64,000 nt of DNA from Phycisphaerae bacterium (GCA_035527275.1 DATLBA010000122.1:19764-83763), one strand, 5' to 3'; numbered from the stretch's first letter, positions 9,726-32,440 are shown. The notes: generated by a model not told the origin, from the letters alone. Translations and numbers: made by a program.

Positions 9726-9753
9726 CCGAACCGGGATTGAAAGGGGAAGGGCG

Positions 9754-11269: not shown

Positions 11270-11485
11270 ATGGAGCGCATCGGCGGACTGCTCGGCTTGG
11301 CGTTCTGCGCCGCTCAGGCTGTGGCCTTGGGAGGAGGGCTGATCGTGATGGTCGTCGGTGGAAACGGCGACGCTTGGCTTCGTTGGACCTTGCCGCCGAT
11401 GATCGGCCTGGGGATGGTGCTCGTGTACGGCCTGCCGCTCGTTGGCGTCTCGGCGGCGCTTTGGCGGGTTTTTAGGGATGGATAG
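11270..11485 (+). CDS. small membrane protein (2 TM helices)
   Basis: Hydrophobic 71-aa ORF directly after the stop at 11269. Confidence 0.4.
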   Translation: MERIGGLLGLAFCAAQAVALGGGLIVMVVGGNGDAWLRWTLPPMIGLGMVLVYGLPLVGVSAALWRVFRDG

Positions 11486-11617
11486 GGTGCAAGAACGTGC
11501 GGCTGAAAAATCGGTGACGGGTCCTTTTTTTGTCCTGCGTTTTCCGGTGGGCGCGGGGAACAATCCTAGACCTGGCTATTCTTTCTTTCGTGGGAAAAAC
11601 GCGAGGAGGACCGACAA

Positions 11618-15991: not shown

Positions 15992-16181
15992 GATTCTTAG
16001 TCTATTCTGAAAGTTCATCTTGACGGGTTTTCGTTTGCGCGCCAGAATGTAAGAGTGTAAGTCTGAGTGACATCTGAATACTGCCAAGGAGAGGCCCTGG
16101 CCGGGGTTGCTTCGTGGCGAGCAAGGCCGCTGGACTGTGATCACCAGCCCGGCGGCCTTTCTCTTTGGCTGGAGGCGACGC

Positions 16182-16385
16182 ATGGCGACATATTCCGAAA
16201 CCATGTTGCACAAATACGAGACGCTGCTGGAATCGTCGGCGGGGCTGAACGTGGTGACCATCGACGGGCAGAGCGTCTCGTTCGCCGATCTGGAAGTGAA
16301 GCGAAAATACTGGCAGCGCGAGGTGGCGAAGGAATCCGGCGCGAAACCGGCTGCTTCGACCATCGACCTGTCGAGGACGTTTTGA
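16182..16385 (+). CDS. gpW-like head-tail joining protein
   Basis: LLESSAGLNVVTIDGQSVSFADLEVKRKYWQREV parallels lambda gpW ([33 protein letters not shown]). RBS GGAGG. Lies upstream of the portal gene, as in lambda. Confidence 0.55.
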   Translation: MATYSETMLHKYETLLESSAGLNVVTIDGQSVSFADLEVKRKYWQREVAKESGAKPAASTIDLSRTF

Positions 16386-19103: not shown

Positions 19104-20030
19104 ATGGCTCTGCCAACGCTGTTGGACATCGCCAGGGCGAGCGGGTCGGACGCCGTGGTCGGTCTCATCGACGAGGCCGCCAAGACCCATCCGGAACTCT
19201 TACTCGGCCCGGCGAGGACGATCAAGGGTCTGAACTACAAGACCCTCGTCCGGACGGCCGTGCCGACCGGAACGGCGTTCCGCGACGCGAACGAGGGCGT
19301 CGCGCCGACGAAAGGGACGTACATCAACCGCCTGGTCGAGGCGTTCATCCTCAACCCGAGGTGGGAATGCGACAAGGCCGTCGCCGACGCCTACGAGGAC
19401 GGCGCCGAGGCCTACATCGCGCTCGAGGGCCAGGCGATCCTCGAGGCCGCGATGCAAGACCTCTGCGCCCAGTTCTACTACGGGCGCGGGACGGGCGGCA
19501 ACGCGAAGGGCTACCCCGGCCTCCTGGCGGCCTACGACGCGGCGAACATGGTTGTGGACGCGGGCGGGACAACGGCCGCCACCGGCTCGAGCGTGTGGGG
19601 CGTGCGTTGGGGCCCGAAGAACGTCCAGTGGGTGTGGGGCCTGAACGGCCAACTCGCCCTCGCGGACGTGCGGGAGGAATCGATCCTGGACGCGGGCGGG
19701 ACGAATAAGTTCACCGCCTACATCCAGGAGATCCTCGCGCGGCCGGGCCTCCAGGTGGCGAGCCTCCTGTCGATCGCCCGCATCAAGAAGTTGACGGCCG
19801 ACAGCGGCAAGACGCTGACCGACGACATGATCGCCGATCTCCTGTCGAAGTTCCCGGCCGGCCTCAGGCCCGACGTGCTCCTGATGAACCGGCGGAGCCT
19901 GCGGCAACTCCAGGACAGCCGCACGGCGACGAACGCGACGGGCGCCCCGGCGCCGTTCCCGGCCGAGGCGTTCGGCGTGCCGATCGCCCCGACGGATGCG
20001 ATCCTCTCGACCGAAGGCTTGACCCTGTAA
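19104..20030 (+). CDS. major capsid protein
   Basis: RBS GGAAAGGA. A 308-aa protein following the protease/scaffold gene, with strong hairpins downstream. Confidence 0.55.
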   Translation: MALPTLLDIARASGSDAVVGLIDEAAKTHPELLLGPARTIKGLNYKTLVRTAVPTGTAFRDANEGVAPTKGTYINRLVEAFILNPRWECDKAVADAYEDGAEAYIALEGQAILEAAMQDLCAQFYYGRGTGGNAKGYPGLLAAYDAANMVVDAGGTTAATGSSVWGVRWGPKNVQWVWGLNGQLALADVREESILDAGGTNKFTAYIQEILARPGLQVASLLSIARIKKLTADSGKTLTDDMIADLLSKFPAGLRPDVLLMNRRSLRQLQDSRTATNATGAPAPFPAEAFGVPIAPTDAILSTEGLTL

Positions 20031-20957: not shown

Positions 20958-21139
20958 TGCCCGAACCCAAAGATCACGACTTGTTGATCCGAATCGACGA
21001 GCGCGTCGCCAAACTCGATCGGTGCATGTCGAATCATCTGTCACACCATTGGGCCGTTACGCTGGCCGCGCTGGGCGCGATGTTAACGGCCATGATCTCG
21101 ATCGTGATTGCCATCGTGGCTGTCCTGGGGACGAGATGA
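20957..21139 (+). CDS. small membrane protein
   Basis: ATGA overlap. One TM helix (AVTLAALGAMLTAMISIVIAIVAVL). Confidence 0.35.
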   Translation: MPEPKDHDLLIRIDERVAKLDRCMSNHLSHHWAVTLAALGAMLTAMISIVIAIVAVLGTR

Positions 21140-21140
21140 C

Positions 21141-21590
21141 ATGTCGATCATCGCGGACGTGGCCGATGCGGTGGCCGGGGAACTCGCGGAAGGGACGTTC
21201 TCTAAAGAGATTTCGGTCGAGCGCCGTTGGCGGCCCCGCGCGACCCTCAGCGAGGCGGGACCGGACGATCCGGTGGCCGTTTTCGTCGTGCCGAAATCCT
21301 GGGCGGCGGAGGTGCTGGACCGCGGACGGACGGTCGAGACGGTCGAGATCGATGTGGCGGTCATGCGGAAACTCGCCGAGCCGGCCGACGACGAGGCGAC
21401 GATCGACGCCCTGATGAACCTGGTGGAGGAGATCGCCGATTTTTTCAAAATGCGGCGGCTGGCGTCGTACCCGTTGGCCGCATGGAAACATTCGGGGCGG
21501 GATCCGATTTACAGCCCGCAGCACCTGGACGAACTCAGGCAGTTCACGAGCGGCGTGACCCTGACGTATAGGGTCGTGCCTTCCGCGTGA
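21141..21590 (+). CDS. hypothetical head-tail joining / tail-completion-like protein
   Basis: ATG 21141 adjacent to the upstream stop; 150 aa. Confidence 0.4.
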   Translation: MSIIADVADAVAGELAEGTFSKEISVERRWRPRATLSEAGPDDPVAVFVVPKSWAAEVLDRGRTVETVEIDVAVMRKLAEPADDEATIDALMNLVEEIADFFKMRRLASYPLAAWKHSGRDPIYSPQHLDELRQFTSGVTLTYRVVPSA

Positions 21591-21702
21591 AAAGTTCAAG
21601 GGTGACGAGCCGCGCACGTAAGTAAGCGGAGCAGTTGACTATGAAACGGATTCTGATGTGGGTCTTTTTGTGCCTGTTTCCGTTCCTCGCGGAGGATCTT
21701 TA

Positions 21703-22449
21703 GTGCAGTCATTCAGCGTCTATCCGGGCGCGACGGATGCCGATACGTTGCTCCTTGCGCGCGCCGACAGCGGTTGGCTGCGGGGAAAGAGCATCGTCGG
21801 GCCGGACTTCACCAACCTTGGCGCTACCCCTACTCCTGAGAGCGACGGCTGGCGCTTCGGCGATGCCGAACGTGACTACATGAACGTCGCGCTTGATGGC
21901 GGTGCACGGATGGCGGGCACACTCGAGTGCTGGATTCGAAACTTCACCACCCCGGATACCACCTATCATTATCCGGTCTGCTGGTTTGAAGCGGGAGCAA
22001 GTCGACTGGCCATATTCCTCCGGCGTAGCGATCCAACAAGTGCGCGCATCGGCGTATATTTTGTGGACAGAAACGCCGCGAACCGCTCGATCTACTGGCA
22101 ACCGAACGACGGTTCAATCGAAGCCCTGTTCGACAGTCCAAAACCGTTTCACGTTGCCGTCACTTTCTGCTGCGATCCGCAAAAGCAGGTTGCGGTGATT
22201 GTGAATGGAAAGAGATATGTGGGGACATCTTGGTCAGGGCTCGTAGGCTTCTCACCTACCACACTTCGCCTGGGGCGGAACTATGATGGTGCTGCCGCTA
22301 ATGACTTCTACGGCGTCCTGGACGAGGTTCGGGTGTCTAACATTGAGCGCTACTCGGCCGACTTCCCGATCACGCGGTTTCAGGAAGGCGAGCGGGCTGG
22401 TTCGAGGGGGCCGGGCGAAACGGTGGAAGTGGCGGGAGGTTGCGTATGA
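21703..22449 (+). CDS. LamG / concanavalin-A-like lectin-domain protein
   Basis: GTLECWIRNF...LRLGRNYDGAAANDFYGVLDEVRVSN is typical of LamG-like jelly-roll domains. GTG after GGAGGA. Confidence 0.5.
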   Translation: MQSFSVYPGATDADTLLLARADSGWLRGKSIVGPDFTNLGATPTPESDGWRFGDAERDYMNVALDGGARMAGTLECWIRNFTTPDTTYHYPVCWFEAGASRLAIFLRRSDPTSARIGVYFVDRNAANRSIYWQPNDGSIEALFDSPKPFHVAVTFCCDPQKQVAVIVNGKRYVGTSWSGLVGFSPTTLRLGRNYDGAAANDFYGVLDEVRVSNIERYSADFPITRFQEGERAGSRGPGETVEVAGGCV

Positions 22450-24740
22450 GCCGGCTCGATAGGGAAACTCTAACGGGTGTTGACATTACGCCCGCTGATG
22501 GACTCCTGGTCCTCACGAAGGCGCTGCCGACCAGCCTGGCGGAGTGGGCACTGAAAGGCATCGTCCGCGTATCGGCTCTCGCCGCAAGCAAGACACGGAC
22601 GCTCACGCTGACCGTCAAGACGGACGGCGAGCACGTGTTCTCAACCGACTGGGTCTTCGAGAGCGACGCGACCGACGCCGGACGGGTGAAGCGAATGGCC
22701 TTTCGCGTGCCCGAGGACATTCGGGGGACGGTGACGCTGCATCTTCACTCCACCGAAGCGACCGATACGACGGTCGATGTGGACGCTCGCCTGAATACAG
22801 ATGTGGATGACGTGCCGAACACTTGGTTTGTGGATGCGACCTACGGCCACGACACGGAGCACGACGGCCGGTCGTGGCAAACTGCCTTTCTGACAATCGA
22901 CGCTGCAATAGCGGTAGCAGCCTCAGGCGACACGATTTGTACGGGTCCTGGGATTTTCGCTCTGGGGGCCGCTGTGATCGAATTACCTGACGGCGTCAAC
23001 TTACAAGGTAAAGGCATCGACGCGACGCTTATTACAAGCACGGCGGTGTTGAGCACACTTGGATGTATCGTAAAGCCGGGCACGGGATCTCGGATAGCCG
23101 ATCTGACAATTCAGGGGATTGCTGGTGCTGGGGTATATCAGGCCGCGTTGGGATACCGAAAGGCGAGTGCCGGCGCGCCGACCCAGGCCCGCTTCCTCCA
23201 TGCTTGGGCCGACCGGGTGCGTTTGATTGCCGACGCCGACGGCGTTTACATTCGAGAAGAGCCCGACCCGGGTACCCGATGTGATCTTGTCATGCGCGAC
23301 TGTCTTATCGAAACTAAGTATGATGGTGTGACGATAATTTCGCGCAACGCAAGTATTGTTCTTTACGACACGCGCATTGTTGTGATAGGGCCCTCTTCCT
23401 GCGGTGGCCAATACGCTCACGGCCTTGCCGGAATAGGAGGCTCGGACGCCTTTATTTCCATGGTGCGGGGTTCACTTGAGGTATCCGGAGCAACAGTGTC
23501 AAACGTAGGTGCTCAAGAGGCCAGAGGTCGCATTATCTTGAGCGATGTTCACGTGGATACCGCTGGAGCTGCCCCGATGGACTTGGTGCAAGCAGATAAT
23601 GGCAGTGTCTTCGTTTTCGGCAGTGTGTTTGACCCAGCTAAGACCTCTGGCACGATTATCCACGTTCCGCCCGGCGCATCCATCCTGGCCGACACGGCCG
23701 CCCTTGAGGCGCGCCTCACTGCGGAACGGGCGGCCCGCCTGGATGCGGACGTATCGAGCCGCGCCACGCCCGCTGACGTGACAGGTGCCCACGGTATGAC
23801 AGACGGCCTCATTGGAGGCCTGGGGTCGCCGGAGCAGGATGGCGCGGTCGCGACCGCCCATGCGACGACTGACGGCAAGGTGGACGCGGCCAAAGCCTCG
23901 GCGGACGCGGCGTCGCGCCCCTCGGACGTCACAACGGCCCACGCGACGACAGACGGCAAGGTGGACGCGGCGAAGGCGAGCGCCGACGCGGCGAAGGCCA
24001 GCGCGGATGAGGCGTCGCGCCCCTCGGACGTGACGACGGCCCACGCGACGACTGACGGCAAGGTGGACGCGGCGAAAGCCAGCGCGGATGCGGCGAAGGC
24101 GAGCGCCGACGAAGCCACCCGGCCCGACGACATTCCGACGCCGGAGGCGAACGCGGCCGAGACCGCAGAAGTCCTGGCGGCGGCGCACGGCGAAGAATCG
24201 TGGGAAAGCCTTGCGGAGCGAGATTGGACGGCGGGCGAGCGCGGGCAGATCCGCGACGCTCTGGGCGTGGCTGGCGACAAGACGACGGCGGAGGACGGAC
24301 AATTGCAGAATATCAAGACCAAGACGGACCTCATCACGGCCGGGAATGTTCGCGTGCGGACGCCGGTTGCGGCCGACGGAACGATTACGCTCATGCGCGG
24401 CGATTCCTACTTGGAAGTGGACGATACAAAACTGAAACTCGATGTTCCGAACTACGCCGGCCCGGACCTGACGGCCGAGGGAACGGTTCTTACGTTCAGC
24501 GTCGGCCCGAGACGCGAGGGACAACCGGCAATCTTCACGGTCGAGGCGTCGGCGGAAATGGACGGGACGACCCTGGTGCTCTCCGCCGATGTGGCGAGCG
24601 GGGACACGGCCGAACTGGATGCGCCCGGAGAATATCTTTATGACTTTCAGGCCGTCTTTGCCTCCGGCGGGATCTTCACTCCCGCCGCCGGCAAACTGTT
24701 GGCGCTTGCCGACGTGATGGCCGAACCGGAAGAGGAGTAG
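22440..24740 (+). CDS. right-handed beta-helix (pectate-lyase-fold) tailspike / depolymerase-like protein with internal tandem repeats
   Basis: NTWFVDATYGHDTEHDGRSWQTAFLTIDAAIAVAASGDTI is the canonical start of pectin-lyase-like beta-helices; 766 aa. Confidence 0.55.
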   Translation: MRMSRLDRETLTGVDITPADGLLVLTKALPTSLAEWALKGIVRVSALAASKTRTLTLTVKTDGEHVFSTDWVFESDATDAGRVKRMAFRVPEDIRGTVTLHLHSTEATDTTVDVDARLNTDVDDVPNTWFVDATYGHDTEHDGRSWQTAFLTIDAAIAVAASGDTICTGPGIFALGAAVIELPDGVNLQGKGIDATLITSTAVLSTLGCIVKPGTGSRIADLTIQGIAGAGVYQAALGYRKASAGAPTQARFLHAWADRVRLIADADGVYIREEPDPGTRCDLVMRDCLIETKYDGVTIISRNASIVLYDTRIVVIGPSSCGGQYAHGLAGIGGSDAFISMVRGSLEVSGATVSNVGAQEARGRIILSDVHVDTAGAAPMDLVQADNGSVFVFGSVFDPAKTSGTIIHVPPGASILADTAALEARLTAERAARLDADVSSRATPADVTGAHGMTDGLIGGLGSPEQDGAVATAHATTDGKVDAAKASADAASRPSDVTTAHATTDGKVDAAKASADAAKASADEASRPSDVTTAHATTDGKVDAAKASADAAKASADEATRPDDIPTPEANAAETAEVLAAAHGEESWESLAERDWTAGERGQIRDALGVAGDKTTAEDGQLQNIKTKTDLITAGNVRVRTPVAADGTITLMRGDSYLEVDDTKLKLDVPNYAGPDLTAEGTVLTFSVGPRREGQPAIFTVEASAEMDGTTLVLSADVASGDTAELDAPGEYLYDFQAVFASGGIFTPAAGKLLALADVMAEPEEE
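23863..24135 (+). repeat. three imperfect tandem repeats of about 81-102 nt encoding TAHATTDGKVDAAKASADAA(KASADEA)SRPSDVT
   Basis: Direct reading of the nucleotide and protein sequence. Confidence 0.6.
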
Positions 24741-24746
24741 AGTCGA

Positions 24747-26585
24747 ATGACGATGCCTATGGTCATCTCGTTCTACACGCCCGACAACGAATACGCGGAG
24801 TGGGCGAAGACTCTCCGCGCCTCGTGCGAGAAGTTCGGGCTGGATCACGAAATCAACGAGGTGGACCTCTCGCGTGTGGGTTCGTGGCATGCGCGCGCGG
24901 CCCATAAAGGCGTGTATATGTTCGAGGCGGCCAAGCGACACGATCCCCGGCCCGTTCTCTGGCTCGACGCCGATTCCGAGATCGTCGGACCGCTGGATAT
25001 GTTCGACGATCCGCCGTTCGATTTCGCCGTCTCGCATCCGCACAACGACCGCGTGCGGACCGGGACGATTTACGCGAACCCTGCCGCGCGGCGTCTGCTC
25101 AGGATCACGGCGGCATTTTGCAAGGCCCATCCCGGGAAGGCCCACGAACGGAATCTTCAGGCGGCCATGCGTCTCGTCAGGATACCGGCGCATCGGAGCA
25201 TCCGGGTCCATTTCCTGGACTATGGGTACAACTACGTCCCGAACTGGCCGACGCCGGCGCAATGGAACGGAAGGATCTTCATTCTCTCGAACCACGTCTC
25301 GGGATGCGGGTATCTCAGATCCACGCAGCGAGACGGAGGGCCGAAGGGCATGGGCAGGCGGCTCAAACTCAAGACGCTCGTGACTTCTTTCTGGTCCGAC
25401 CAGGAGGGCACGTTCTACAAGCAGGCCGCGCGGACGCTCCAGAAAAGGTGCGGTGCCCTCGGCATCGAATACGACATCCGGCCGCGACCGCCGGGTGCCA
25501 ATTGGATCCGCAACTGCGACATGAAGCCGAGTCACATCCTGGAGGTCCTCGAACAGCGCAAGCGGCCGGTCCTGTGGATCGATGCCGATAGCGATCTTAT
25601 AAGCGTGCCGACGGCCGTGGACGCCCTCGATTGCGATGTGGCCGCGGTGCCGTTCGAGGGATCCCCGCGGAACGATCCGCCGCTTCGCGTTCGGGCATTC
25701 GTGCTCTATTTCAATTACACGCCGGCGGCCCTGGATTTCGTGAGGTCCTGGAAGGCCAAGTGCGACTCTTCGACGAGCGAGGACATCTCGGACCACCAGT
25801 ACCTCGAGCGGACCTGGCGGGAGTTCGAGGCGGCGCGGCCGGACTGCCGATTCGCCCACCTGCCGGAGACCTACGCCGGCACGCGGAAAACGGCGGGCAG
25901 CGTCATCCTTTACGGGGCCGGGCATGGGGCAAGCCGCACGGAGGTGTGTCAGCGCTACTCGAAACGGGCCCTGCGGCTGACGAGCGATAAGGTGTTCGGA
26001 TACTTCAGCCGCGCTCAGCGGGCCTTTTACGACCGCATGGTGGCCGAGGCGCCGGACCCGGCCGTCTTTATCGAGGTGGGGTGTCTGCTCGGAAAATCGA
26101 CGATCTACCTGGCCCAGGCGATCCAGGCCGTGCGTAGTTATGCCGGTAGTCCAGGAACCGGCAAGTTCATTCAGATTCATGCCGTCGATTGGTTCAAGGG
26201 GAGCGACGAGCCGGCCTTCCGGACCGAGCCGGCCCTCCAGGGCATAGACTTCAAGACGGAGTTCTTGCGGAATATCATGTCGGCAAACGTCCATAAAGTA
26301 GTTCGTACTCATACCGGCGAATCGACCGCCGTCGCCCGGACGTTCGCGCCGGCGAGCGCCGACATGGTTTTCATCGACGGATCGCACGACTACGAATCGG
26401 TCAAGCGGGACATCCTGGCGTGGCGATCGGTGGTGAAGCCGGGCGGCGTGCTGGCGGGCGACGACTACCATTCCCCCCGATGGGCCAGCGTCGTAAAGGC
26501 CGTGGACGAACTCCTGCCCGGCCGGAAGATCGAGGGGACGATCTGGACGTGGAAAGTGCCCGCGAAGGAAGAGGTTCCGGCATGA
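24747..26585 (+). CDS. multidomain protein: two tandem nucleotide-sugar glycosyltransferase-like domains (DxD-type) plus a C-terminal class I SAM-dependent methyltransferase
   Basis: Paired domains (VISFYTPDNEYAEWAKTL...VLWLDADSEIVGPLD and LVTSFWSDQEGTFYKQAARTL...VLWIDADSDLISVP). The C-terminus carries FIEVGCLLGKST...VFIDGSHDYESVKRD...GGVLAGDDY. RBS GAGGAG. Confidence 0.5.
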   Translation: MTMPMVISFYTPDNEYAEWAKTLRASCEKFGLDHEINEVDLSRVGSWHARAAHKGVYMFEAAKRHDPRPVLWLDADSEIVGPLDMFDDPPFDFAVSHPHNDRVRTGTIYANPAARRLLRITAAFCKAHPGKAHERNLQAAMRLVRIPAHRSIRVHFLDYGYNYVPNWPTPAQWNGRIFILSNHVSGCGYLRSTQRDGGPKGMGRRLKLKTLVTSFWSDQEGTFYKQAARTLQKRCGALGIEYDIRPRPPGANWIRNCDMKPSHILEVLEQRKRPVLWIDADSDLISVPTAVDALDCDVAAVPFEGSPRNDPPLRVRAFVLYFNYTPAALDFVRSWKAKCDSSTSEDISDHQYLERTWREFEAARPDCRFAHLPETYAGTRKTAGSVILYGAGHGASRTEVCQRYSKRALRLTSDKVFGYFSRAQRAFYDRMVAEAPDPAVFIEVGCLLGKSTIYLAQAIQAVRSYAGSPGTGKFIQIHAVDWFKGSDEPAFRTEPALQGIDFKTEFLRNIMSANVHKVVRTHTGESTAVARTFAPASADMVFIDGSHDYESVKRDILAWRSVVKPGGVLAGDDYHSPRWASVVKAVDELLPGRKIEGTIWTWKVPAKEEVPA

Positions 26586-27187
26586 CGACTCACGTGAAAT
26601 TGAGGACTATCACGCAACTCGATGTGGAGCGCGAGGCGGCCTTGAATCCGTACTGGAAAGGGCGGTGGGAAAATTATCTGGCGGTCGCGTGCCGGATTTT
26701 CCGCGAGATCCCGGGTGTCACGAGGGTGCTGGAGATCGGACCCGGAAGCCTCTCGCTCGTGCGCGGTTGCGACATCATGGACATCTGGAACTGGGGCCGG
26801 CGGCCGCTGACTTTCGGGCACGATGCCGGGGCGGTGCCCTGGCCGCTCCCCGACGATGCTTACGACGTGGTCGTGGCCTTGCAAGTGCTCGAGCATCTTG
26901 GCGGCGACAACGCCCGATTCTATCGCCGGGTCATGGCGGCGTTGCCGGACAAAGAGCAATGCGTCCGGCGGCAAAGGGCGGCGTTCGCCGAGGCGCTCAG
27001 GGTCGCGCCGAGGCTGCTCCTCAGCGTGCCGCTGGACTGGAAGACGACGGGGATGCACGCGGGGATCACGCCGGATGTGGTGAAATCTTGGGCGCCGCGC
27101 GGCGCCAAAGTGACAGCGTCTGTCAAGGTCGGGCGGGACCAGAACCGCCGGCGACTTGTGGAACTCTGGCAAAGGGAGACAGTCTGA
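26582..27187 (+). CDS. class I SAM-dependent methyltransferase
   Basis: VLEIGPGSLSL...VVVALQVLEHL. ATGA overlap. Confidence 0.5.
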   Translation: MTTHVKLRTITQLDVEREAALNPYWKGRWENYLAVACRIFREIPGVTRVLEIGPGSLSLVRGCDIMDIWNWGRRPLTFGHDAGAVPWPLPDDAYDVVVALQVLEHLGGDNARFYRRVMAALPDKEQCVRRQRAAFAEALRVAPRLLLSVPLDWKTTGMHAGITPDVVKSWAPRGAKVTASVKVGRDQNRRRLVELWQRETV

Positions 27188-27630
27188 TGGAAAAACTGGG
27201 AATGGATGCAAAACTCTACCGGAACAAGGGGACCTACGCGGTTCCCGACTGGGAGGAGATCACCAACGTGCGGGACGTGACGCTGAACCTGGAAGAGGGT
27301 GAGGCGGATCTCACGACCCGGGCGAATGCGGGCTGGCGGGCGACGCTCGGGACCCTGAAGGATGCGAGCGTCGACTTCGAGATGGTCTGGGACACCGAGG
27401 ATGATGGGTTCACCGCCCTCCAGGAGGCGTTCTTTGATAAGACGACCCTGGAGATAGCCGCCATGTCCGGCGCCATCGACGATGCCGAGAGCCAGGGACT
27501 CCGGGCGACCATGCGGGTGGCGACGTTCACGCGGTCTGAGCCGCTCGAGGAAGGCATCACCGTCGCCGTGACGCTGAAGCCGGCCCCGGCCGACAACGCG
27601 CCGGAATGGATCAGCGGCGCCTACGCCTGA
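27187..27630 (+). CDS. major tail (tube) protein
   Basis: 147-aa protein immediately upstream of the chaperone and tape-measure genes, with a beta-rich composition. Confidence 0.55.
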   Translation: MEKLGMDAKLYRNKGTYAVPDWEEITNVRDVTLNLEEGEADLTTRANAGWRATLGTLKDASVDFEMVWDTEDDGFTALQEAFFDKTTLEIAAMSGAIDDAESQGLRATMRVATFTRSEPLEEGITVAVTLKPAPADNAPEWISGAYA

Positions 27631-27701
27631 GCTGGCGTAGGATGGCGGCGGATCAACGAACATCTGCCCCAATGCAATGGGGCGGGGAAAGGGAGCAGGC
27701 C

Positions 27702-28238
27702 ATGAAAACGTTTCTCGACAGCGCGGGCCGGACCTGGACCATCGCGATCACGGTGGATGCGGTGCGGCGGGTGCGCGACCTGGTGGACGTGAACCTCGCG
27801 CGCATCATCGAGCCGCGCAAGGCGGGAGGCGAGGTCCCCCTTATGACGGATCTCGAGGACGATCTGCTGCTCCTCGTGGACGTCATCTACGCCCTGGTGA
27901 AGCCGCAGGCCGACGAGGCCGGCGTCTCGGACGAGGAGTTCGGCCGGGCCCTGGGCGGCGAGGCAATCGCCGCGGCCCACGAGGCGTTCTGGAGGGAACT
28001 CGCGGATTTTTTCCGGAGCCTGAGGCGGCGCCCGAACGCGGCCGAGGCGAGGGCCATCGAGAAGCAGCTCGCGCTCGTCGAGGCGGCGCTGGCGGTCGCG
28101 GAAGAGAAGATCGAGGCCCTCGATCCGGAAAAGATGATCGCGGCGGCGGAAAAGAAGTTCGAAGAGGAAAACCTCCGGACGGCTGGCGACTCGTCTTCGA
28201 GTGCGCCGGGGTCTGCGGAGTCGCCCCCGGACCGCTGA
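27702..28238 (+). CDS. tail assembly chaperone (gpG-like)
   Basis: Position after the tail-tube gene and an acidic C-terminus. An 89-codon ORF in the -1 frame runs from its stop to 28504. Confidence 0.45.
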   Translation: MKTFLDSAGRTWTIAITVDAVRRVRDLVDVNLARIIEPRKAGGEVPLMTDLEDDLLLLVDVIYALVKPQADEAGVSDEEFGRALGGEAIAAAHEAFWRELADFFRSLRRRPNAAEARAIEKQLALVEAALAVAEEKIEALDPEKMIAAAEKKFEEENLRTAGDSSSSAPGSAESPPDR

Positions 28239-28258
28239 CGCTGCGGGAACTGGTGTGG

Positions 28259-28504
28259 ATGGCGGAAGGATGCTCGCGGGAACGGTGGAACCATACGGCG
28301 TCGCTGATGGCGCACCTGGCGAACATCAGCCCGTTCCGAAAGAAGGGGCGCACGCTCCAGCCGAAAGATTTTCATCCGTTCCAGACGGGACGGCGCAAAG
28401 GCGGTCTGCGGCTGACGAAGGAGAACATCGGCATCCTGAAACAGGTTTTTGTGCGGTCAAAGGCCGCTTCCAACAGGCGGGGGAAAAAAGGGGACGGAAA
28501 ATGA
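28259..28504 (+). CDS. ORF in the -1 frame relative to the chaperone gene: either a gpT-like frameshift extension or a small separate gene
   Basis: Frame-2 ORF open from 27677 through 28504. ATG at 28259. The stop overlaps the next start (ATGA). Confidence 0.3.
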   Translation: MAEGCSRERWNHTASLMAHLANISPFRKKGRTLQPKDFHPFQTGRRKGGLRLTKENIGILKQVFVRSKAASNRRGKKGDGK

Positions 28505-29187
28505 AATGCGCGGCGGCAGTTCTTCTGGCGGTGGCAGTACTCGTTTTGGCGGGCGGGTGCCTCTGGCTCAAAGACTCAACCCGGACCACACCCGCCAGCG
28601 TCGAACTGAACTCGGAGGTTTATAGCGGCCAAGACGAGACTGGTGCGCCGATATGGTCGCGCAAAAGCGCCAAGGCCGTCGGGCCGAGCGTCGCCGTCAA
28701 ACAGGATGGCGGGGCGGCGGATTTCGATTCTACCGTGCCGGAAGTGTCCATCAACGGAATGACGGGGAAGGCCGGCGGGACGGCACTGGGCGTCAAGAAC
28801 GCTTTTGCCAAGGCGCTTCAGACGCCACTAGCGCTCGGCGTTCTGGGTGGTCTGGCGGTCATTGCCGGCGCGGTGCTCGGGATTTTGACGAAAAGTGCCA
28901 AGGCGGCCTTGCCGCTGGTCGGGGTCGGCGTGCTCTTGATTGGCTTGGCCGTCGTCGCCGAGACGGCACCGTGGGTCTATTGGATTGCCGCCCTCGCGGC
29001 GCTTGCTGCTGCGGGCTACCTGGGTTGGCGCTACTGGAAAACCGACCTGTCGTTGCGTCTGGTGGCGCGGGCCGTTGAGAAGTCCGACCATGCTGGAGAA
29101 GTCAAGACGGCGGTTGCACTCGCCAGCCGCGACGATCCGGGGGTCAAGGCGACCATCGGCGAGGCCAAGACAAGAGAAGGGGTGTGA
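28501..29187 (+). CDS. membrane protein (signal peptide/lipobox-like N-terminus, 3 or more TM helices)
   Basis: MKCAAAVLLAVAVLVLAGGC followed by hydrophobic segments. Confidence 0.45.
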   Translation: MKCAAAVLLAVAVLVLAGGCLWLKDSTRTTPASVELNSEVYSGQDETGAPIWSRKSAKAVGPSVAVKQDGGAADFDSTVPEVSINGMTGKAGGTALGVKNAFAKALQTPLALGVLGGLAVIAGAVLGILTKSAKAALPLVGVGVLLIGLAVVAETAPWVYWIAALAALAAAGYLGWRYWKTDLSLRLVARAVEKSDHAGEVKTAVALASRDDPGVKATIGEAKTREGV

Positions 29188-29190
29188 GCA

Positions 29191-29442
29191 ATGGCTCGAA
29201 GGTACATTCTGATTACGCCCGCCGACGGCGGGCTGTGGCGACTCGCCAAGGCCGTCTGTCGTCAGGGGGCGACGGAAGCCCTTGATTTTGCGGGCCTCGT
29301 CAAACGTCTCTGCGAAGAGGAGGCCGGCAAGGCCGAGGTCAACGTCGCCCAGATGAGCGAAGTGCTCGCGGATCTTCGGAAACTCTTGGCGGCGGACCCG
29401 AAGGCGGTCTTGGAGGTCCTGGCTGGGAAACTGGAGGAATGA
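29191..29442 (+). CDS. hypothetical protein
   Basis: RBS GAAGGGG; 83 aa. Confidence 0.4.
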   Translation: MARRYILITPADGGLWRLAKAVCRQGATEALDFAGLVKRLCEEEAGKAEVNVAQMSEVLADLRKLLAADPKAVLEVLAGKLEE

Positions 29443-29558
29443 GGCGATCTCCGCCGAAGGGGTCCAGTCCCACGGCCAAGGGGGGGATCGCCGCGTGTGG
29501 GCGGTCCTGGCGCACCAGGGGGGGGACTAGCCCCTCGCACCGCGAGGGGACATTGGTT

Positions 29559-29590
29559 ATCCCCCGGAGCGCAGTCCGGGGGAGAATAGA
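29559..29590 (+). promoter_or_regulatory. 32-nt hairpin element ATCCCCCGGAGCGCAGTCCGGGGGAGAATAGA immediately 5' of the RBS; copy 1 of 2
   Basis: Stem CCCCCGGA/TCCGGGGG with loop GCGCAG. Identical at 31/32 positions to 32471..32502. Confidence 0.5.
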
Positions 29591-29601
29591 AGGAGGATGA
29601 C

Positions 29602-30132
29602 GTGCCTGCAGGCGGGTTGAACATGACCTTTTCGATGTTCTTCGATCGCCGTCCCGTTCTGCACGCGGCGGATAAGGCCAAGCGGCAGGTGATGTCGAAG
29701 GCCGGGGCGTTCATCCGGACAGCCGCGAAGTCCTCCTTGAAGTCCGCGCCGCAGAAAACGCTCGCGGAAATGTCGGCCGAGGAGCGCGAGATCTATGCCA
29801 TTCGCATCCGCAAGGCCGAACGCCGGGGCCGGCGAAAACCCCGCCGGCCCGAGCGGAGAAGCAGGCCCGGCCGGCCGCCGCTTCTGCACATGCGGCCGTC
29901 GCCTCTGAAGCGGCTCATCTACTTCGGTTACGACCGGGCGGCGGACTCGGTGGTCGTCGGGCCCCTCAGGTTCGGGCGACGCCCGGGCGCGGACGTCCTC
30001 GAGCGCGGCGGCACGGCCCGGATCCGGGGCCGCCGTCGGCGCGTCGCCGCCCGGCCGTTCATGGGACCGGCTCTGGCGCAGGAACTGCCGAAGTTCCCGA
30101 GCCTGTGGCGAGACTCGGTAAGGAGGGCGTGA
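29602..30132 (+). CDS. hypothetical tail/virion morphogenesis protein
   Basis: GTG after AGAAGGAGGA. 176 aa with an Arg-rich C-terminus. Confidence 0.4.
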   Translation: MPAGGLNMTFSMFFDRRPVLHAADKAKRQVMSKAGAFIRTAAKSSLKSAPQKTLAEMSAEEREIYAIRIRKAERRGRRKPRRPERRSRPGRPPLLHMRPSPLKRLIYFGYDRAADSVVVGPLRFGRRPGADVLERGGTARIRGRRRRVAARPFMGPALAQELPKFPSLWRDSVRRA

Positions 30133-30133
30133 C

Positions 30134-32440
30134 ATGGCGACTCCCGGCGGCATTCGTGCCGGCAAGGCTTACGTCGAACTGGGCGTCCGGGACCGTCTGT
30201 CGCGGGGTCTGAGGGCGGCCAGTGCAAAACTCAAGGCGTTCGGGGCTCAGGTCATGGCCATCGGGGCGTCGGTCCGGACCGCGGGCCTTCGGCTCTTCGC
30301 CGCCGCCGCAGGTATGGCGGTGCCGTTTGTCGTTGCCGCGAAGGTCTTCGCCTCCTTCGAAGAGCAGATGGCCAACGTCTCGACGATGCTCGGCGACCAG
30401 GCCGAAAAATACATGCCCGCCTACACGAAAGCCGTCCGCCGCATGAGCGTCGAATTCGGCGAAGGGACCGAGACCATCGCCAAGGGCCTCTACGATCTCC
30501 TGTCGGCCACGGTTGCGCCGGAAAAGGCGCTGGGCGTCCTTCGCGTCGCCCTGAAGGCGGCCGCCGGCGGCATGACCGATACGGCCACATCCGTCAAGGC
30601 AGTGGTCCGCGTCCTGAAGGCTTACAACGTGGATGCGGAGGCGGCGGCGGACATAAGCGACCTCCTGTTCAAGATCGTCCAGCGAGGCGTGGTGACCTAT
30701 CCGGAACTGGCCGAGCACATCGGCTCGGTCGCGCCGGCCGCCCGCGCTGCCGGACTGTCGCTCGAAGAGTTGGCGGCGGCCATCGCGACGGTCATTACCG
30801 TTGAGGAGCCCGCCCGGGCAATGACCGCCCTCAGGCAGGCGATATTCGAGGCCGCCGAGGCGGGGCTCGACCTGATGTCGTTCATCCGAAAGTTCGAGGG
30901 CGCCGACCTCGAAGCAATCATTGCCGCGGGCATTCCCAAACGGGCCGCTCTGGGCGTGGTCATTCTCGCCGGCAACATCGCACTGCTCGATGAAAACCTT
31001 GCCGCGATGGCGGCGAGGACCGGCGCGGCCGAGGAGGCCTATCAGAGGATGGCCTTTACGCTGGGCCGCTTCGGCCGCCAGGCGAAGCAGGCGGGCCTCT
31101 TGATCCTGTCGACGATCGGCGAGGCCCTGGCGGAGCCGCTGAAACGGGCGGCGAAGGCCATCACGGAGTGGGGAACAAGAGTCGCCGACTGGGTTTCCAA
31201 GAATAAGGAGCTGATTCGCACACTGGCAAAAGGCGTCCTCATCGTCGGGGCCCTCGGGGCCGGACTGGTCATCCTGGGGACGATCATTTCCGGCGTCGGC
31301 TTCGGGATTATGGGGTTTGGGATAATACTCGGCGCGGTTGTCACAGCCCTGGGGGCACTTCTCTCGCCCCTCGGGCTCGTTGTGGCGGCCCTCGGCCTCG
31401 TCTCGATTGCCGTCGTCGGTCTCGGCGCCTACCTCCTGTGGGCGAGCGGCGCGGGCGGAAAGGCCCTGGCCTGGCTCAGCGAGAAGTTTGGGGAACTGAA
31501 GGACTTCGCTCTGAAGTCTTTTCAGGGCATCAAGGACGCCCTGGCCGCAGGCGACTTCCGGCTGGCGGCCAGAGTTCTCTGGGCGAGTCTCAAGGTGGCC
31601 TGGCAGAAAGGGACCCACTGGCTGGAGACGACCTGGCTCGATTGGAAGAAGTCATTTCTCGACACGGCGACGGACGCCTTCTACGGCTTCCTGGCGCTTT
31701 GGACCCAGGTCAGAGCAAAAATCGCCACGGTTGCAGCCGAGATGAAGGCGCTTTTCTCGACCATCGGCGCCGTCGGCGCGGGCCTTGTCAAACTCAAACT
31801 TCACGAGACCGTGGGCCGAGCGGCCGCTCGGCGCGAGGCCGCCGAACTGAAGGCACGCAGGGGGCGCGGCGAAATCACACCGGAAGAGTATGCGGCCGGC
31901 AAAACAGAAATTTTTGAGCGTTGGAAAGCCAGGCGCGCAGAGATCGTCGGCGAGACGGATAAAAAACTCGTTGACGCCGAGGAAGACCTGCAAAAAACCC
32001 TTTTGGGAATCGAGGACGAAAAAGAGAAGGCCCTCATCGACGCCGCCGAAAAGGCCGCCGCCGCCCGCCGCAAACACGCAGCTGCACACGGCAAGGCCCT
32101 GGCCGCAGCGGAAAAGGAACTCGCCGACGCCGAAGCCGCGTGGGAGACGGCGGTCAGAGATGCAGCCCAGGCACGCGAGCTGGCGGAACGGCCGCTGTGG
32201 GGGGAGGAAGAACCGCCGGGGGCGCCGCCCGTGCCCAACATTGCGGATCTGCTGAAAAACATCGGCGAGGGTGTGGGCGAGGCTGTGGAGCGGACCGTCC
32301 GGGTCCGGGGGACCTTCAGCCCGTTTGCGGCCGAGGCGCTCGGCCTGGGCGACGCCCTGACCAACGCGGCGAAGGCAACCGCCAAGAACACGAAGCGCCT
32401 CGTCGACATGGCGGAGGATGGCGGACTGGTCTTCGAATAG
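30134..32440 (+). CDS. tail tape measure protein
   Basis: 768 aa, alpha-helical and Ala-rich, with multiple TM segments in the middle. N-terminal resemblance to the phage tape-measure domain family. Confidence 0.75.
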   Translation: MATPGGIRAGKAYVELGVRDRLSRGLRAASAKLKAFGAQVMAIGASVRTAGLRLFAAAAGMAVPFVVAAKVFASFEEQMANVSTMLGDQAEKYMPAYTKAVRRMSVEFGEGTETIAKGLYDLLSATVAPEKALGVLRVALKAAAGGMTDTATSVKAVVRVLKAYNVDAEAAADISDLLFKIVQRGVVTYPELAEHIGSVAPAARAAGLSLEELAAAIATVITVEEPARAMTALRQAIFEAAEAGLDLMSFIRKFEGADLEAIIAAGIPKRAALGVVILAGNIALLDENLAAMAARTGAAEEAYQRMAFTLGRFGRQAKQAGLLILSTIGEALAEPLKRAAKAITEWGTRVADWVSKNKELIRTLAKGVLIVGALGAGLVILGTIISGVGFGIMGFGIILGAVVTALGALLSPLGLVVAALGLVSIAVVGLGAYLLWASGAGGKALAWLSEKFGELKDFALKSFQGIKDALAAGDFRLAARVLWASLKVAWQKGTHWLETTWLDWKKSFLDTATDAFYGFLALWTQVRAKIATVAAEMKALFSTIGAVGAGLVKLKLHETVGRAAARREAAELKARRGRGEITPEEYAAGKTEIFERWKARRAEIVGETDKKLVDAEEDLQKTLLGIEDEKEKALIDAAEKAAAARRKHAAAHGKALAAAEKELADAEAAWETAVRDAAQARELAERPLWGEEEPPGAPPVPNIADLLKNIGEGVGEAVERTVRVRGTFSPFAAEALGLGDALTNAAKATAKNTKRLVDMAEDGGLVFE

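What the first reader, a model, noticed from the sequence alone, without database searches (positions are those of the whole stretch)
21591..27186. Glycan-active cassette (LamG lectin, beta-helix tailspike, GT-GT-methyltransferase, second methyltransferase) inserted between head-tail joining genes and the tail-tube gene
Between the last head-tail connector gene (21141..21590) and the major tail protein gene (27187) lie four genes unrelated to core morphogenesis. These are a LamG-like lectin-domain protein, a 766-aa pectate-lyase-fold protein with tandem repeats, a 612-aa protein with two DxD-type glycosyltransferase-like domains fused to a CmcI/TylF-like SAM methyltransferase, and a second SAM methyltransferase. 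The block has patches of lower GC than its surroundings. This looks like a moron or insertion. It could decorate the virion (neck or head fibres plus self-glycosylation or methylation). It could instead modify host surface polysaccharide, giving serotype conversion or receptor masking by the prophage. A two-glycosyltransferase-plus-methyltransferase single polypeptide in a virion gene cluster is uncommon.
Basis: partly seen in the sequence, partly recalled or inferred. Interest (0 to 1): 0.55.

Follow-up and report, generated by a model that had tools for sequence, protein, structure and literature searches.

The report
Phage fibre and glycan-tailoring enzyme insert
A prophage in a Phycisphaerae (Planctomycetota) genome carries two add-on gene modules just before its tail-tube gene, an extra fibre and a set of sugar-adding and sugar-methylating enzymes, and the enzymes most likely coat the virus particle with methylated sugars as a green-alga virus and some mycobacteriophages are known to do.

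Summary
The four genes are real, on the + strand and translationally coupled into the late operon. Twelve related viral contigs that keep both flanking genes have only 24-1456 bp in this slot. The window has 5.6 kb, so the insertion is real.

It is two modules, not one cassette:
- **Fibre module.** A LamG-like protein plus a 764-aa modular fibre. It occurs alone before a tail-tube gene in L034. Only its LamG gene and central domain are low in GC3 (0.63 and 0.57, against 0.78-0.93).
- **Enzyme module.** A 612-aa protein with two paralogous GT-A/DxD glycosyltransferase domains and a Methyltransf_24 O-methyltransferase domain, plus a 201-aa divergent class I methyltransferase. Its GC3 matches the backbone.

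The best PDB fold match of the 612-aa model is domain 1 of chlorovirus PBCV-1 A064R. That protein is a GT-GT-MT capsid-glycosylating enzyme that works with a separate small methyltransferase. Close relatives of the enzyme pair sit among virion genes in three other phage backbones.

The most likely function is glycosylation and O-methylation of virion proteins. The target is not shown. Serotype conversion is disfavoured: no membrane segments and a late-operon position. The pectate-lyase fold of the fibre could not be verified.

Moderately interesting; a new variant of a known kind.

The parts
21141..21590 (+). Left flank of the slot: a conserved 150-aa head-tail or tail-completion-type gene (g160). 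No family assignment.
   Evidence: Homologues at 35-46% identity lie 24-1456 bp upstream of the tube gene in 12 related viral contigs. No Pfam or PHROG hit.
21658..22449 (+). LamG/concanavalin-A-like protein (263 aa from GTG 21658; start uncertain). Partner of the fibre gene.
   Evidence: PF13385, E 5.3e-6, 27.1 bits against a cut-off of 27.6. PDB 4dqa, E 8.8e-4. Its stop overlaps the fibre start as ATGA. The pair is conserved in L034. GC3 0.63.
22446..24740 (+). Modular fibre protein, 764 aa. Domains: N-terminal jelly-roll anchor (residues 1-117); variable central domain (about 118-410; beta-helix unverified); Ala/Asp/Thr-rich helical repeat stalk; C-terminal domain (about 560-764).
23883..24112 (+). 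Tandem repeat inside the fibre gene: 102 bp (34 aa, TAHATTDGKVDAAKASADAA...) x 2.3 copies. A recombination breakpoint lies at its 5' edge.
   Evidence: TRF score 348, 86% matches. Identity of 99-100% to L049 and L050 ends at 23884.
24747..25370 (+). GT-GT-MT protein, domain 1 (residues 1 to about 205): GT-A fold glycosyltransferase domain with D74-A-D76.
25371..26006 (+). GT-GT-MT protein, domain 2 (residues about 208-415): second GT-A domain with D279-A-D281.
   Evidence: pLDDT 92-99. D279 is invariant and K260, W277, D281 and D297 are at least 90% conserved across 147 relatives. 26 of 55 relatives match PF03407 (best 6e-8). A profile matches AgtA (6mw5), E 0.012, with the DxD aligned.
26007..26585 (+). 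GT-GT-MT protein, domain 3 (residues about 430-612): class I SAM-dependent O-methyltransferase of the Methyltransf_24/CmcI type.
26582..27187 (+). MT2: 201-aa divergent class I methyltransferase-like protein, a constant partner of the GT module. It carries a 21-aa insertion relative to its homologues.
   Evidence: Motifs VLEIGPG and VALQVxEHL. Pfam hits only at E 0.006-0.017. 236 homologues were found, and some carry PF08241. Next to GT-GT in L002, L004 and L036/L037. Next to other glycosyltransferases in L046, L047, L048 and L053.
27187..27630 (+). Right flank of the slot: the tail tube (major tail) protein gene.
   Evidence: PF06199, 29.4 bits against a cut-off of 23.8. PHROG major tail protein, 1.6e-10. 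Its start overlaps the MT2 stop as TGATG.

Best explanation
Two accessory modules sit in a variable slot between the last head-tail gene and the tail-tube gene. The host element is a siphovirus-type prophage, or prophage remnant, in a Phycisphaerae bacterium.

**Module 1: LamG-like protein plus 764-aa fibre.** This is an optional extra fibre. A conserved N-terminal jelly-roll domain would anchor it to the particle. The gene position suggests the collar or neck, as with lactococcal neck passage structures. Exchangeable distal domains would bind or cut host surface glycans.

**Module 2: 612-aa GT-GT-MT protein plus 201-aa MT2.** This is a soluble enzyme set made late in infection. The proposed steps are:
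1. The two GT-A/DxD domains add two sugars in turn from host nucleotide-sugars to an acceptor.
2. The fused CmcI/Methyltransf_24-type domain O-methylates the terminal sugar.
3. MT2 adds a further methyl group.

The most likely acceptor is one or more virion proteins (capsid, tail tube or the fibre), modified in the cytoplasm before or during assembly.

**Shown here:** gene structure, domain folds and motifs, the insertion, the separability of the modules, and the recurrent genomic contexts.

**Inferred:** enzymatic activity, the order of the steps, the sugar identity (a methylated deoxyhexose such as rhamnose is only a hint), the acceptor, and the fibre's location on the particle.
For: **Insertion.** The g160-to-tube gap is 24-40 bp in L019, L022 and L025, and 293-1456 bp in nine further related contigs. 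It is 5.6 kb here.

**Late-operon membership.** Start and stop codons overlap (ATGA, TGATG). There is no excess of promoters or terminators.

**Soluble proteins.** The maximum 19-residue hydropathy is 1.0-1.6, so no membrane segments are predicted.

**Glycosyltransferase identity.**
- The two domains are paralogues.
- The DxD motif and the other family-conserved residues are present in both.
- Relatives match PF03407.
- In longer relatives the domain is fused to methyltransferase domains, polysaccharide pyruvyl transferase, FkbM and MptE-like domains.

**Sugar O-methyltransferase identity.** PF13578 at 75.9 bits. Structural neighbours are SpnH, MeT1 and CalS11.

**MT2 is functionally linked to glycan synthesis.** It neighbours GT-GT in four other contexts, in either gene order: L002, L004, L036/L037 and L039. 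It also neighbours GT4, GT2, Rhamno_transf and RMNT_CmcI genes in L046, L047, L048 and L053, and a nucleotide-sugar cluster in L051.

**Position among virion genes.** The GT family lies among structural genes in several backbones:
- before the tube gene (window lineage and L007);
- beside a podovirus Tube gene (L002);
- after a Phage_cap_E capsid gene (L004);
- after a P22-type portal gene (L029);
- after an SU10-type capsid gene (L027).

**Precedents.**
- PBCV-1 A064R (GT-GT-MT, 638 aa) and A061L (209-aa MT) build a dimethylated rhamnose cap on capsid glycans (PMC9614988).
- Corndog carries an O-MT, two GT genes and a GlcNAc-transferase gene inside its structural operon, and these enzymes are absent from virions (PMC4351075).
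- Glycans occur on the capsid and tail tube of mycobacteriophages (as cited in PMC12619734 and PMC11256854).

**Fibre.** Its architecture and gene position parallel lactococcal NPS proteins: a conserved ~130-aa N-terminal beta-sandwich, a variable distal carbohydrate-binding or beta-helix domain, and presence in only some phages (PMC6669499).
Against: - No acceptor is identified.
- Tail-tube proteins of phages with and without the GT module show no specific extension or Ser/Thr-rich tail. The capsid and tube C-termini here look ordinary.
- One distant relative of the GT domain lies beside a DNA polymerase gene rather than structural genes (L028).
- Cellular members of the MT2 family sit in ordinary polysaccharide loci (L051, L053). 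The enzymes are therefore general glycan tools, and position is the only link to the virion.
- The window protein's own GT domains do not reach any Pfam threshold.
- MT2's methyltransferase identity rests on motifs and weak hits. A profile of the family found no PDB match.
- The PHROG family that matches the MT domain is labelled 'DNA methyltransferase'.
Confidence: 0.5

Rival explanations
1. Host glycan modification. The enzymes alter the host's surface polysaccharide or a glycoprotein, giving serotype conversion, receptor masking or superinfection exclusion that benefits the lysogen or protects progeny.
For: - The element is integrated next to host genes (tRNA-Met at 1078-1152; type IV pilus genes from 38.6 kb).
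- Temperate phages are known to modify host serotype with glycosyltransferases (cited in PMC12619734).
- Cellular members of the MT2 family sit in polysaccharide loci (L051, L053).
Against: - No membrane segments or signal peptides.
- The genes are embedded in, and translationally coupled to, the late structural operon, far from the ends of the element. No promoter-like site lies within the block, and the region as a whole shows no excess.
- The backbone-like GC3 argues against a recently acquired lysogenic-conversion moron.
- Close homologues lie inside structural modules of viral contigs of other types.
Confidence: 0.13
2. DNA modification. The transferases glycosylate or methylate modified bases in the phage DNA to evade restriction.
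For: - PHROG 2675, which matches the MT domain, is labelled 'DNA methyltransferase'.
- Phage glycosyltransferases that hypermodify DNA are known (cited in PMC12619734).
- One distant relative of the GT domain lies beside a family A DNA polymerase gene (L028).
Against: - The 17 larger ORFs screened across 1.1-16 kb and 32.5-43.6 kb gave no base-hydroxymethylase or thymidylate-synthase-like hit. The early-region hits were ordinary Dam-type and N6/N4 DNA methylases, ParB-like and DUF5131.
- The MT domain's structural neighbours are sugar and small-molecule O-methyltransferases.
- The domain's fusion partners are polysaccharide-tailoring domains.
- The position is among virion genes rather than replication genes.
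Confidence: 0.06
3. The enzymes act on something other than the virion, the envelope or DNA. Examples are a host cytoplasmic protein or a small molecule (takeover, anti-defence or a metabolite). Alternatively they serve only the neighbouring fibre, for instance by maturing its C-terminal domain.
For: - GT-A/DxD enzymes that glycosylate cytoplasmic proteins exist among the structural neighbours (AgtA acting on Skp1; glycogenin).
- The fibre's C-terminal 205 aa co-occur with the enzyme genes in L001, L008 and L035, while the visible upstream part of the fibre differs.
Against: - Takeover functions are normally early genes.
- The enzyme pair occurs on contigs with no homologue of this fibre (L002, L004).
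- Co-occurrence with the fibre C-terminus may simply reflect physical linkage.
Confidence: 0.2

Closest known systems
Chlorovirus PBCV-1 A064R (638 aa; two rhamnosyltransferase domains plus a 2-O-methyltransferase domain) with the separate methyltransferase A061L (209 aa)
   Same: - Same order of three ~200-aa domains (GT, GT, MT) in one soluble polypeptide of similar length (612 against 638 aa).
- Both have a separate ~200-aa methyltransferase gene (MT2 is 201 aa).
- A 638-aa viral protein, M1IF74, aligns along the whole length in BFVD (E 2.8e-18). It is unnamed in the tool output. Its chlorovirus origin is my inference from the accession series and the length.
- Both are virus-encoded and cytoplasmic (PMC9614988).
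   Different: - Sequence identity is about 10-12%, and no sequence-level match to A064R-D1 was found.
- Here the two GT domains are paralogues, both with DxD. A064R-D2 is a distinct, cation-independent inverting family.
- The host is a bacterium. The acceptor and the sugars are unknown.
Mycobacteriophage virion-glycosylation genes: Corndog gp35-gp38 (O-methyltransferase, two glycosyltransferases and an N-acetylglucosaminyltransferase inside the structural operon), and the Che8 glycosyltransferases
   Same: - Glycosyltransferase and O-methyltransferase genes are inserted among virion structural genes of a siphovirus.
- The enzymes are soluble and expressed during infection.
- They are proposed, and in Che8 reported, to glycosylate the capsid and tail tube (PMC4351075; PMC11256854 and PMC12619734).
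   Different: - Different slot: portal-to-protease in Corndog, the genome's 3' end in the Che8-like phage Maravista (PMC11256854), and connector-to-tube here.
- Separate genes there, a tri-domain fusion here.
- Sequence relatedness was not tested.
- Different host phylum (Actinomycetota against Planctomycetota).
- No glycosylated C-terminal tail is evident here.
Lactococcal neck passage structure (NPS, collar-whisker) proteins of 936-type and P335-type phages
   Same: - Size is in the same range: 764 aa here against ~500-900 residues for NPS proteins (PMC6669499).
- A conserved N-terminal beta-sandwich of about 120-130 aa is followed by a helical stalk and exchangeable distal domains.
- The gene is present in only some related phages.
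- The gene sits directly upstream of the tail-tube gene. That position for the lactococcal NPS gene is from my own knowledge, not from the passages read.
   Different: - No sequence or specific fold match to BppU or NPS was obtained.
- A separate LamG-like partner gene is present here.
- The collar location is untested.
- The central domain's fold is unknown.
PF03407 Nucleotid_trans / GT77-type GT-A transferases (for example Dictyostelium AgtA)
   Same: - GT-A fold with DxD.
- 26 of 55 family relatives match PF03407 (best 6e-8).
   Different: - The window's own domains do not reach the Pfam threshold.
- They form a compact ~200-aa unit, mostly found as stand-alone proteins. The unit has 1554 cluster representatives at E <= 0.001.

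Membership tests
GT-A fold, DxD nucleotide-sugar glycosyltransferases (PF03407/GT77-like) | Rossmann-like alpha/beta/alpha GT-A fold | tested here: met
GT-A fold, DxD nucleotide-sugar glycosyltransferases (PF03407/GT77-like) | DxD motif following a beta-strand, conserved across the family | tested here: met
   L-W-L-D74-A-D76-S and L-W-I-D279-A-D281-S. D279 is invariant and D281 is at least 90% conserved in 147 sequences. The DxD aligns with that of AgtA.
GT-A fold, DxD nucleotide-sugar glycosyltransferases (PF03407/GT77-like) | Score above the Pfam gathering threshold for PF03407 | tested here: not met
   The window protein has no PF03407 hit at E <= 0.1. Only relatives hit: 26 of 55 at E <= 1, best 6.4e-8. 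It is therefore filed as GT-A/DxD-like, not as a PF03407 member.
GT-A fold, DxD nucleotide-sugar glycosyltransferases (PF03407/GT77-like) | Glycosyl transfer from a nucleotide sugar | not testable with these tools
   Needs an enzyme assay.
Methyltransf_24 (PF13578) / CmcI-TylF-type class I O-methyltransferases | Score above the Pfam gathering threshold, and a class I SAM-binding fold | tested here: met
Class I SAM-dependent methyltransferase (the 201-aa MT2) | Glycine-rich motif I and the downstream acidic and hydrophobic motifs; profile score above threshold | tested here: inconclusive
   V-L-E-I-G-P-G and V-A-L-Q-V-x-E-H-L are invariant in four homologues. Pfam hits are 15-18 bits, below cut-offs of 21-30. 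A family profile finds nothing in the PDB at E <= 1. Some of the homologues carry a precomputed PF08241.
Laminin_G_3 / concanavalin-A-like lectin-glucanase (PF13385) | Score above the Pfam gathering threshold | tested here: inconclusive
   27.1 bits against 27.6, E 5.3e-6, covering 126 of 151 profile positions. PDB 4dqa, E 8.8e-4. No structure was predicted.
Pectate-lyase-like right-handed beta-helix (the fibre's central domain) | Beta-helix fold, or a match to a beta-helix family profile | tested here: not met
Lactococcal NPS-type collar fibre | Optional gene directly upstream of the tail-tube gene; conserved N-terminal beta-sandwich with variable distal domains | tested here: met
   Position and presence/absence. 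Conserved N-terminus and variable remainder. N-terminal beta-sandwich in the model, pLDDT 55-80. The NPS description comes from PMC6669499.
Lactococcal NPS-type collar fibre | BppU-like N-terminal domain homology, and a collar seen on the particle | tested here: inconclusive
PBCV-1 A064R/A061L capsid-glycan capping system | GT-GT-MT tri-domain polypeptide plus a separate small methyltransferase | tested here: met
   Domain order and boundaries. MT2 lies adjacent. Architecture compared with PMC9614988.
PBCV-1 A064R/A061L capsid-glycan capping system | Domain 2 belongs to the distinct, cation-independent inverting family of A064R-D2; there is sequence homology across the domains | tested here: not met
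   Here domain 2 is a DxD-bearing paralogue of domain 1. No sequence-level match to A064R-D1 was found at E <= 1. It works like A064R/A061L but is not filed as an orthologue.
Prophage serotype-converting modules (Gtr-type) | Membrane-embedded transferase or flippase components and lysogenic expression | tested here: not met
   No hydrophobic segment passes a transmembrane-like level. The genes lie in the late operon with overlapping stops and starts. Expression itself is not testable here.

The most novel reading that the evidence does not exclude
The ~200-aa GT-A/DxD unit and its partner MT2 may mark a widespread, so far unrecognised virion-glycosylation system of environmental tailed phages. 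It would reach well beyond actinobacteriophages, including phages of Planctomycetota, and would share ancestry with the chlorovirus A064R/A061L capsid-glycan capping enzymes. In that reading, methylated deoxyhexose caps on particles are an ancient and common viral trait. In glycan-scavenging hosts such as Planctomycetota they might even serve as bait for the host's polysaccharide-capture apparatus. That last step is pure speculation.
Probability: 0.15. Interest if true: 0.75.

Novelty: new variant of a known kind. Interest (0 to 1): 0.5.

Why it matters
Enzymes that glycosylate the virus particle itself are documented in the papers read here for chloroviruses and for mycobacteriophages. This locus puts a comparable enzyme set into the structural operon of a phage of a poorly studied phylum. 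The set comprises two glycosyltransferase domains, a fused sugar O-methyltransferase and a second methyltransferase.

The same GT unit and its MT2 partner recur among virion genes of several unrelated phage backbones in metagenomes. If the target is the virion, particle glycosylation would be more widespread among environmental phages than is currently recognised. That would bear on adsorption, particle stability and recognition by hosts or grazers.

The finding also gives a testable bacterial counterpart of A064R/A061L. It offers a clean example of a 'plug-in' slot in a tail operon where a fibre module and an enzyme module are gained independently.

Tried and rejected
- **Phage database search.** A DNA search of 21000-28000 found nothing.
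- **MT2 profile against the PDB.** No hit.
- **PHROGs on 55 GT-domain relatives.** No family matched.
- **A glycosylation 'handle' on the tail tube.** I aligned tube proteins from phages with and without the GT module. No specific extension or Ser/Thr tail appeared. The capsid proteins of the related contigs are not homologous to the one here, so they could not be compared.
- **Attachment-site repeat of the tRNA-Met.** None of 14 bp or longer was found, so the prophage ends are undefined.
- **Metagenome and genome scans for close relatives.** These added few loci.
- **Literature.** The primary paper on mycobacteriophage virion glycosylation (Freeman et al. 2023) is not held, so it is cited only through papers that cite it. 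Searches for 6G7D and M1IF74 found nothing.
- **The 990-aa antisense ORF at 23499-26471.** Rejected as a gene. It overlaps two well-supported + strand genes in a 63% GC region, where long spurious ORFs are expected.

Full report
**What is there.** The window is 64% GC. Its left 37 kb reads as a tailed-phage genome integrated in, or assembled with, a bacterial chromosome.
- The phage genes include a large terminase (13601-15670), a lambda-type portal (16067-17800), a protease/scaffold gene, an epsilon15-gp7-type major capsid protein (19104-20030; NCBIfam 200 bits against a cut-off of 75), a head-tail joining protein (PF25138), a tail tube gene (27187-27630, PF06199) and a tape measure gene (30134-32440).
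- Host type IV pilus genes start at 38.6 kb.
- The fibre protein and MT2 are 100% identical to proteins annotated from a Phycisphaerae bacterium MAG. A second Phycisphaerae MAG carries an 87% identical copy of the transferase.
- The host is therefore a member of the Planctomycetota. The ends of the element were not resolved, because no repeat of the tRNA-Met was found.

**Gene structure of the flagged block.** Four + strand genes occupy 21658-27187.
- The junctions are ATGA (LamG/fibre, which puts the fibre start at ATG 22446 behind a GGAGG), a 6-bp gap (fibre/612), ATGA (612/MT2) and TGATG (MT2/tube).
- Promoter-like and terminator-like sites are no more frequent than in shuffled sequence.
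- None of the four proteins has a hydrophobic stretch of transmembrane strength.
- They are therefore soluble products of the late operon.

**Is it an insertion?** Yes.
- Fifteen viral contigs encode a tail tube protein 46-68% identical to this one. Most also carry homologues of the two upstream head-tail genes, the chaperone, the tape measure and the two following tail genes.
- Twelve of them retain both flanking genes. The distance from the g160 homologue to the tube gene is 24-40 bp in three (L019, L022, L025) and 293-433 bp in seven. In four of those seven it holds a small gp10-like gene.
- It is 1456 bp in two (L021, L023). Here it is 5.6 kb.
- The gp10-like gene is present in the window but sits between the chaperone and the tape measure gene (29602-30132; BLASTP 9e-13).

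**One cassette or two?** Two.
- In L034 a LamG fragment and a 632-aa fibre homologue (39% identity over residues 3-499) sit directly before a tube gene, with no transferase.
- In L007, L009 and L026 (an Opitutaceae MAG) a GT-GT protein sits directly before the tube gene, with no MT2 homologue. The contig is cut just upstream, so a fibre gene cannot be assessed there.
- In L002 a 56% identical GT-GT-MT protein and an MT2 homologue (40%) lie next to a podovirus-type tubular protein gene (PF17212).
- In L004 and L006 a GT-GT protein without the MT domain and an MT2 homologue (32%) follow a Phage_cap_E capsid gene in a contig that also carries a Mu-like protease gene.
- Composition agrees. GC3 is 0.63 for LamG and 0.57 for the fibre's central domain. 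It is 0.81 for both transferase genes and 0.78-0.93 for the other head, connector and proximal-tail genes.
That suggests a more recent arrival for those segments.

**The 612-aa protein.**
- Residues 1-205 and 208-415 are paralogues (30% identity, E 1e-10).
- An exhaustive HMMER search of 1.84 billion cluster representatives with residues 1-420 found 1554 proteins at E <= 0.001. Most are stand-alone ~200-aa proteins. The full-length tri-domain architecture was seen only in P0001 (90%), the Phycisphaerae-MAG copy L008/L035 (87%) and P0002 (56%).
- K, W, D-x-D and a downstream D are invariant or nearly invariant in the family, and both domains here keep them.
- The window's domains give no Pfam hit themselves. 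However, 26 of 55 relatives match PF03407 Nucleotid_trans (best 6.4e-8). A family profile aligns its DxD with that of the GT77 enzyme AgtA (6mw5, E 0.012).
- In longer relatives the unit is fused to several kinds of methyltransferase domain, polysaccharide pyruvyl transferase, FkbM, MptE-like and TPR domains. These are partners typical of glycan tailoring.
- An AlphaFold model built on 147 sequences has pLDDT 79.5, with domain 2 at 92-99.
- Glycogenin, AgtA, a GT6 enzyme and the GT34 enzyme XXT follow for the GT part. For the C-terminal part the matches are SpnH (spinosyn rhamnosyl 4'-O-methyltransferase), MeT1 of Mycobacterium hassiacum and CalS11.
- The C-terminal domain is a solid PF13578 Methyltransf_24 member (75.9 bits).

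**MT2.**
- On its own it gives only sub-threshold methyltransferase hits. A four-sequence alignment shows invariant V-L-E-I-G-P-G and V-A-L-Q-V-x-E-H-L motifs. These are the usual motif I and a later motif of class I enzymes.
- A profile search found 236 homologues at E <= 0.001, of about 160-230 aa. Some carry PF08241.
- What makes MT2 informative is its neighbourhood. It lies next to GT-GT in either order in L002, L004, L036/L037 and L039.
- It lies next to a GT4 gene and a polysaccharide deacetylase gene, downstream of terminase, portal and minor-capsid genes, in L046.
- It lies next to a Methyltransf_24 gene and a Rhamno_transf gene in L047, and next to two GT2 genes in L048.
- In cellular DNA it lies next to a GT4 gene and an RMNT_CmcI gene (L053), and next to a DegT/PglD/epimerase sugar cluster in a Rhodopirellula MAG (L051). 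One context was uninformative (L052).
- The trio of a glycosyltransferase, a CmcI/Methyltransf_24-type O-methyltransferase and MT2 therefore recurs (window, L002, L047, L053). This points to two methylations on one glycan.

**Where the GT unit sits in other phages.** Besides the cases above, it lies:
- after a P22-type portal gene in L029, where it is again fused to a Methyltransf_24 domain;
- after an SU10-type capsid gene in L027;
- next to a family A DNA polymerase gene in L028.

Most of the independent contexts examined are thus structural modules. This is the main, though indirect, argument that the acceptor is a virion component.

**Comparison with known systems.**
- PBCV-1 A064R has 638 aa. 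D1 (1-212) is a GT-A/DxD rhamnosyltransferase. D2 (213-438) is a second rhamnosyltransferase of a distinct family. D3 (439-638) is a methyltransferase that methylates O-2 of the terminal rhamnose.
- A061L, a separate 209-aa methyltransferase, then methylates O-3 (PMC9614988). The parallel with the 612-aa protein plus the 201-aa MT2 is close in logic and in the fold of D1.
- It is not orthology as far as I could test. Identity is about 10%. No sequence-level match to D1 was found. Domain 2 here is a DxD paralogue of domain 1.
- A 638-aa viral protein (M1IF74) is the second-best BFVD match and aligns along the whole length (E 2.8e-18). I suspect it is a chlorovirus A064R orthologue but could not confirm its identity.
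[quoted passage not shown] The enzymes are made in infected cells, are absent from virions, and were proposed to modify the capsid (PMC4351075).
- Later work reported glycans on the capsid and tail tube of such phages (as cited in PMC11256854 and PMC12619734). The primary paper is not held.

**The fibre module.**
- The 764-aa protein shares its first ~120 residues with several otherwise different proteins. AlphaFold models this part as a beta-sandwich (pLDDT 55-80), and the rest of the model is unusable.
- The centre (about 118-410) begins with a 'GHDTEHDG...TIDAAIAVAASGDTICTGPG' stretch reminiscent of beta-helix caps. It gives weak tail-fibre and Leptospira surface-protein hits. No test confirmed a pectate-lyase fold.
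- A 34-aa unit repeats 2.3 times, within a helical Ala/Asp/Thr-rich region.
- The last 205 residues are shared at 81% with the longer fibre proteins of L001, L008 and L035, whose visible upstream parts are unrelated.
- Conserved N-terminal anchor, stalk, exchangeable distal parts, optional presence and a position just upstream of the tube gene together match the description of lactococcal neck passage structures (PMC6669499).
- I therefore read it as an accessory collar or side fibre with the LamG-like protein as its partner. Its location on the particle is an inference.

**Mechanism and alternatives.**
- The best-supported model is given under the best explanation. Late in infection the soluble GT-GT-MT protein and MT2 use host nucleotide sugars and SAM to build a short, methyl-capped glycan on virion protein(s).
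- I put this at about 0.5. The acceptor is unknown, and no feature of the tube or capsid proteins marks them as substrates.
- Host-envelope modification (0.13) is disfavoured by solubility, operon position, composition and the contexts of homologues.
- DNA modification (0.06) is disfavoured because no base-hydroxymethylase or thymidylate-synthase-like gene was found among the larger ORFs screened, which gave only ordinary DNA methylases. The sugar-type structural neighbours argue the same way.
- Action on another cytoplasmic target, or on the fibre alone (0.2), cannot be excluded.

**Verdict.**
The fold of the fibre's centre is unverified.
But the block is two modules, and the serotype-conversion option is weak.
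- It is a new variant of a known kind (virus-encoded virion-glycan enzymes inside a structural operon) in an unusual host phylum, with a notable architectural parallel to chlorovirus A064R/A061L.
- Interest is moderate.

Noticed in passing
window 21910-23884; L049 1-1975; L050 1-1577: Two Logan contigs from other samples carry DNA 99.3% and 100% identical to the LamG 3' part plus the fibre's N-terminal and central domains. Identity stops exactly at the start of the 102-bp tandem repeat. Beyond it the fibre has a different C-terminus, and the contig becomes a 42-47% GC phage backbone (Phage_portal gene; a 1435-aa DNA-ligase/Peptidase_S78_2 fusion). This is either very recent module exchange between phages of very different GC, or an assembly chimera through the shared repeat.
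   Followed up: partly
window 28238-30134 (ORFs 28501-29187 and 29602-30132): There is a second expanded slot, between the tail chaperone and the tape measure gene: 1.9 kb here against about 240 bp in L012. It holds a 228-aa protein with a lipoprotein-like signal (LAGGC) and hydrophobic C-terminal helices, which may be an exclusion or membrane moron. It also holds the gp10-like gene that related phages keep between g160 and the tube gene.
   Followed up: partly
window 19104-20030 against L011-L025: The related contigs share the connector and tail genes, and weakly the protease, but gave no hit to this epsilon15-gp7-type capsid protein. The head and tail modules of this lineage are therefore mosaic.
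   Followed up: no
window 3487-13015: The early region carries two DNA methyltransferase genes (D12/Dam class at 5018-6118; N6_N4 class at 11618-13015), a ParB-like gene (3487-5196) and a DUF5131 gene (10154-11269). No integrase was recognised by Pfam in the ORFs next to the tRNA-Met.
   Followed up: no
window 1078-1152: A tRNA-Met gene lies at the left edge of the phage-like region. No direct repeat of it of 14 bp or longer was found elsewhere in the window, so the attachment sites and the ends of the element remain undefined.
   Followed up: partly
window 26912-26974 (MT2 residues about 111-131): The window's MT2 has a 21-aa insertion (DNARFYRRVMAALPDKEQCVR). It is absent from the 75% identical Phycisphaerae homologue and from more distant homologues. 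It lies just after the conserved V-A-L-Q-V-x-E-H-L motif.
   Followed up: no
window 33396-35180: The 594-aa tail protein downstream of the tape measure gene gives a short 'avian adenovirus fibre N-terminal' repeat match (E 1.2e-7, residues 401-432). Part of it is duplicated in inverted orientation in L001 (80% identity over residues 465-534).
   Followed up: no
window 23499-26471, minus strand: A 990-aa antisense ORF spans the fibre and transferase genes. I read it as a by-product of high GC, not as a gene.
   Followed up: no
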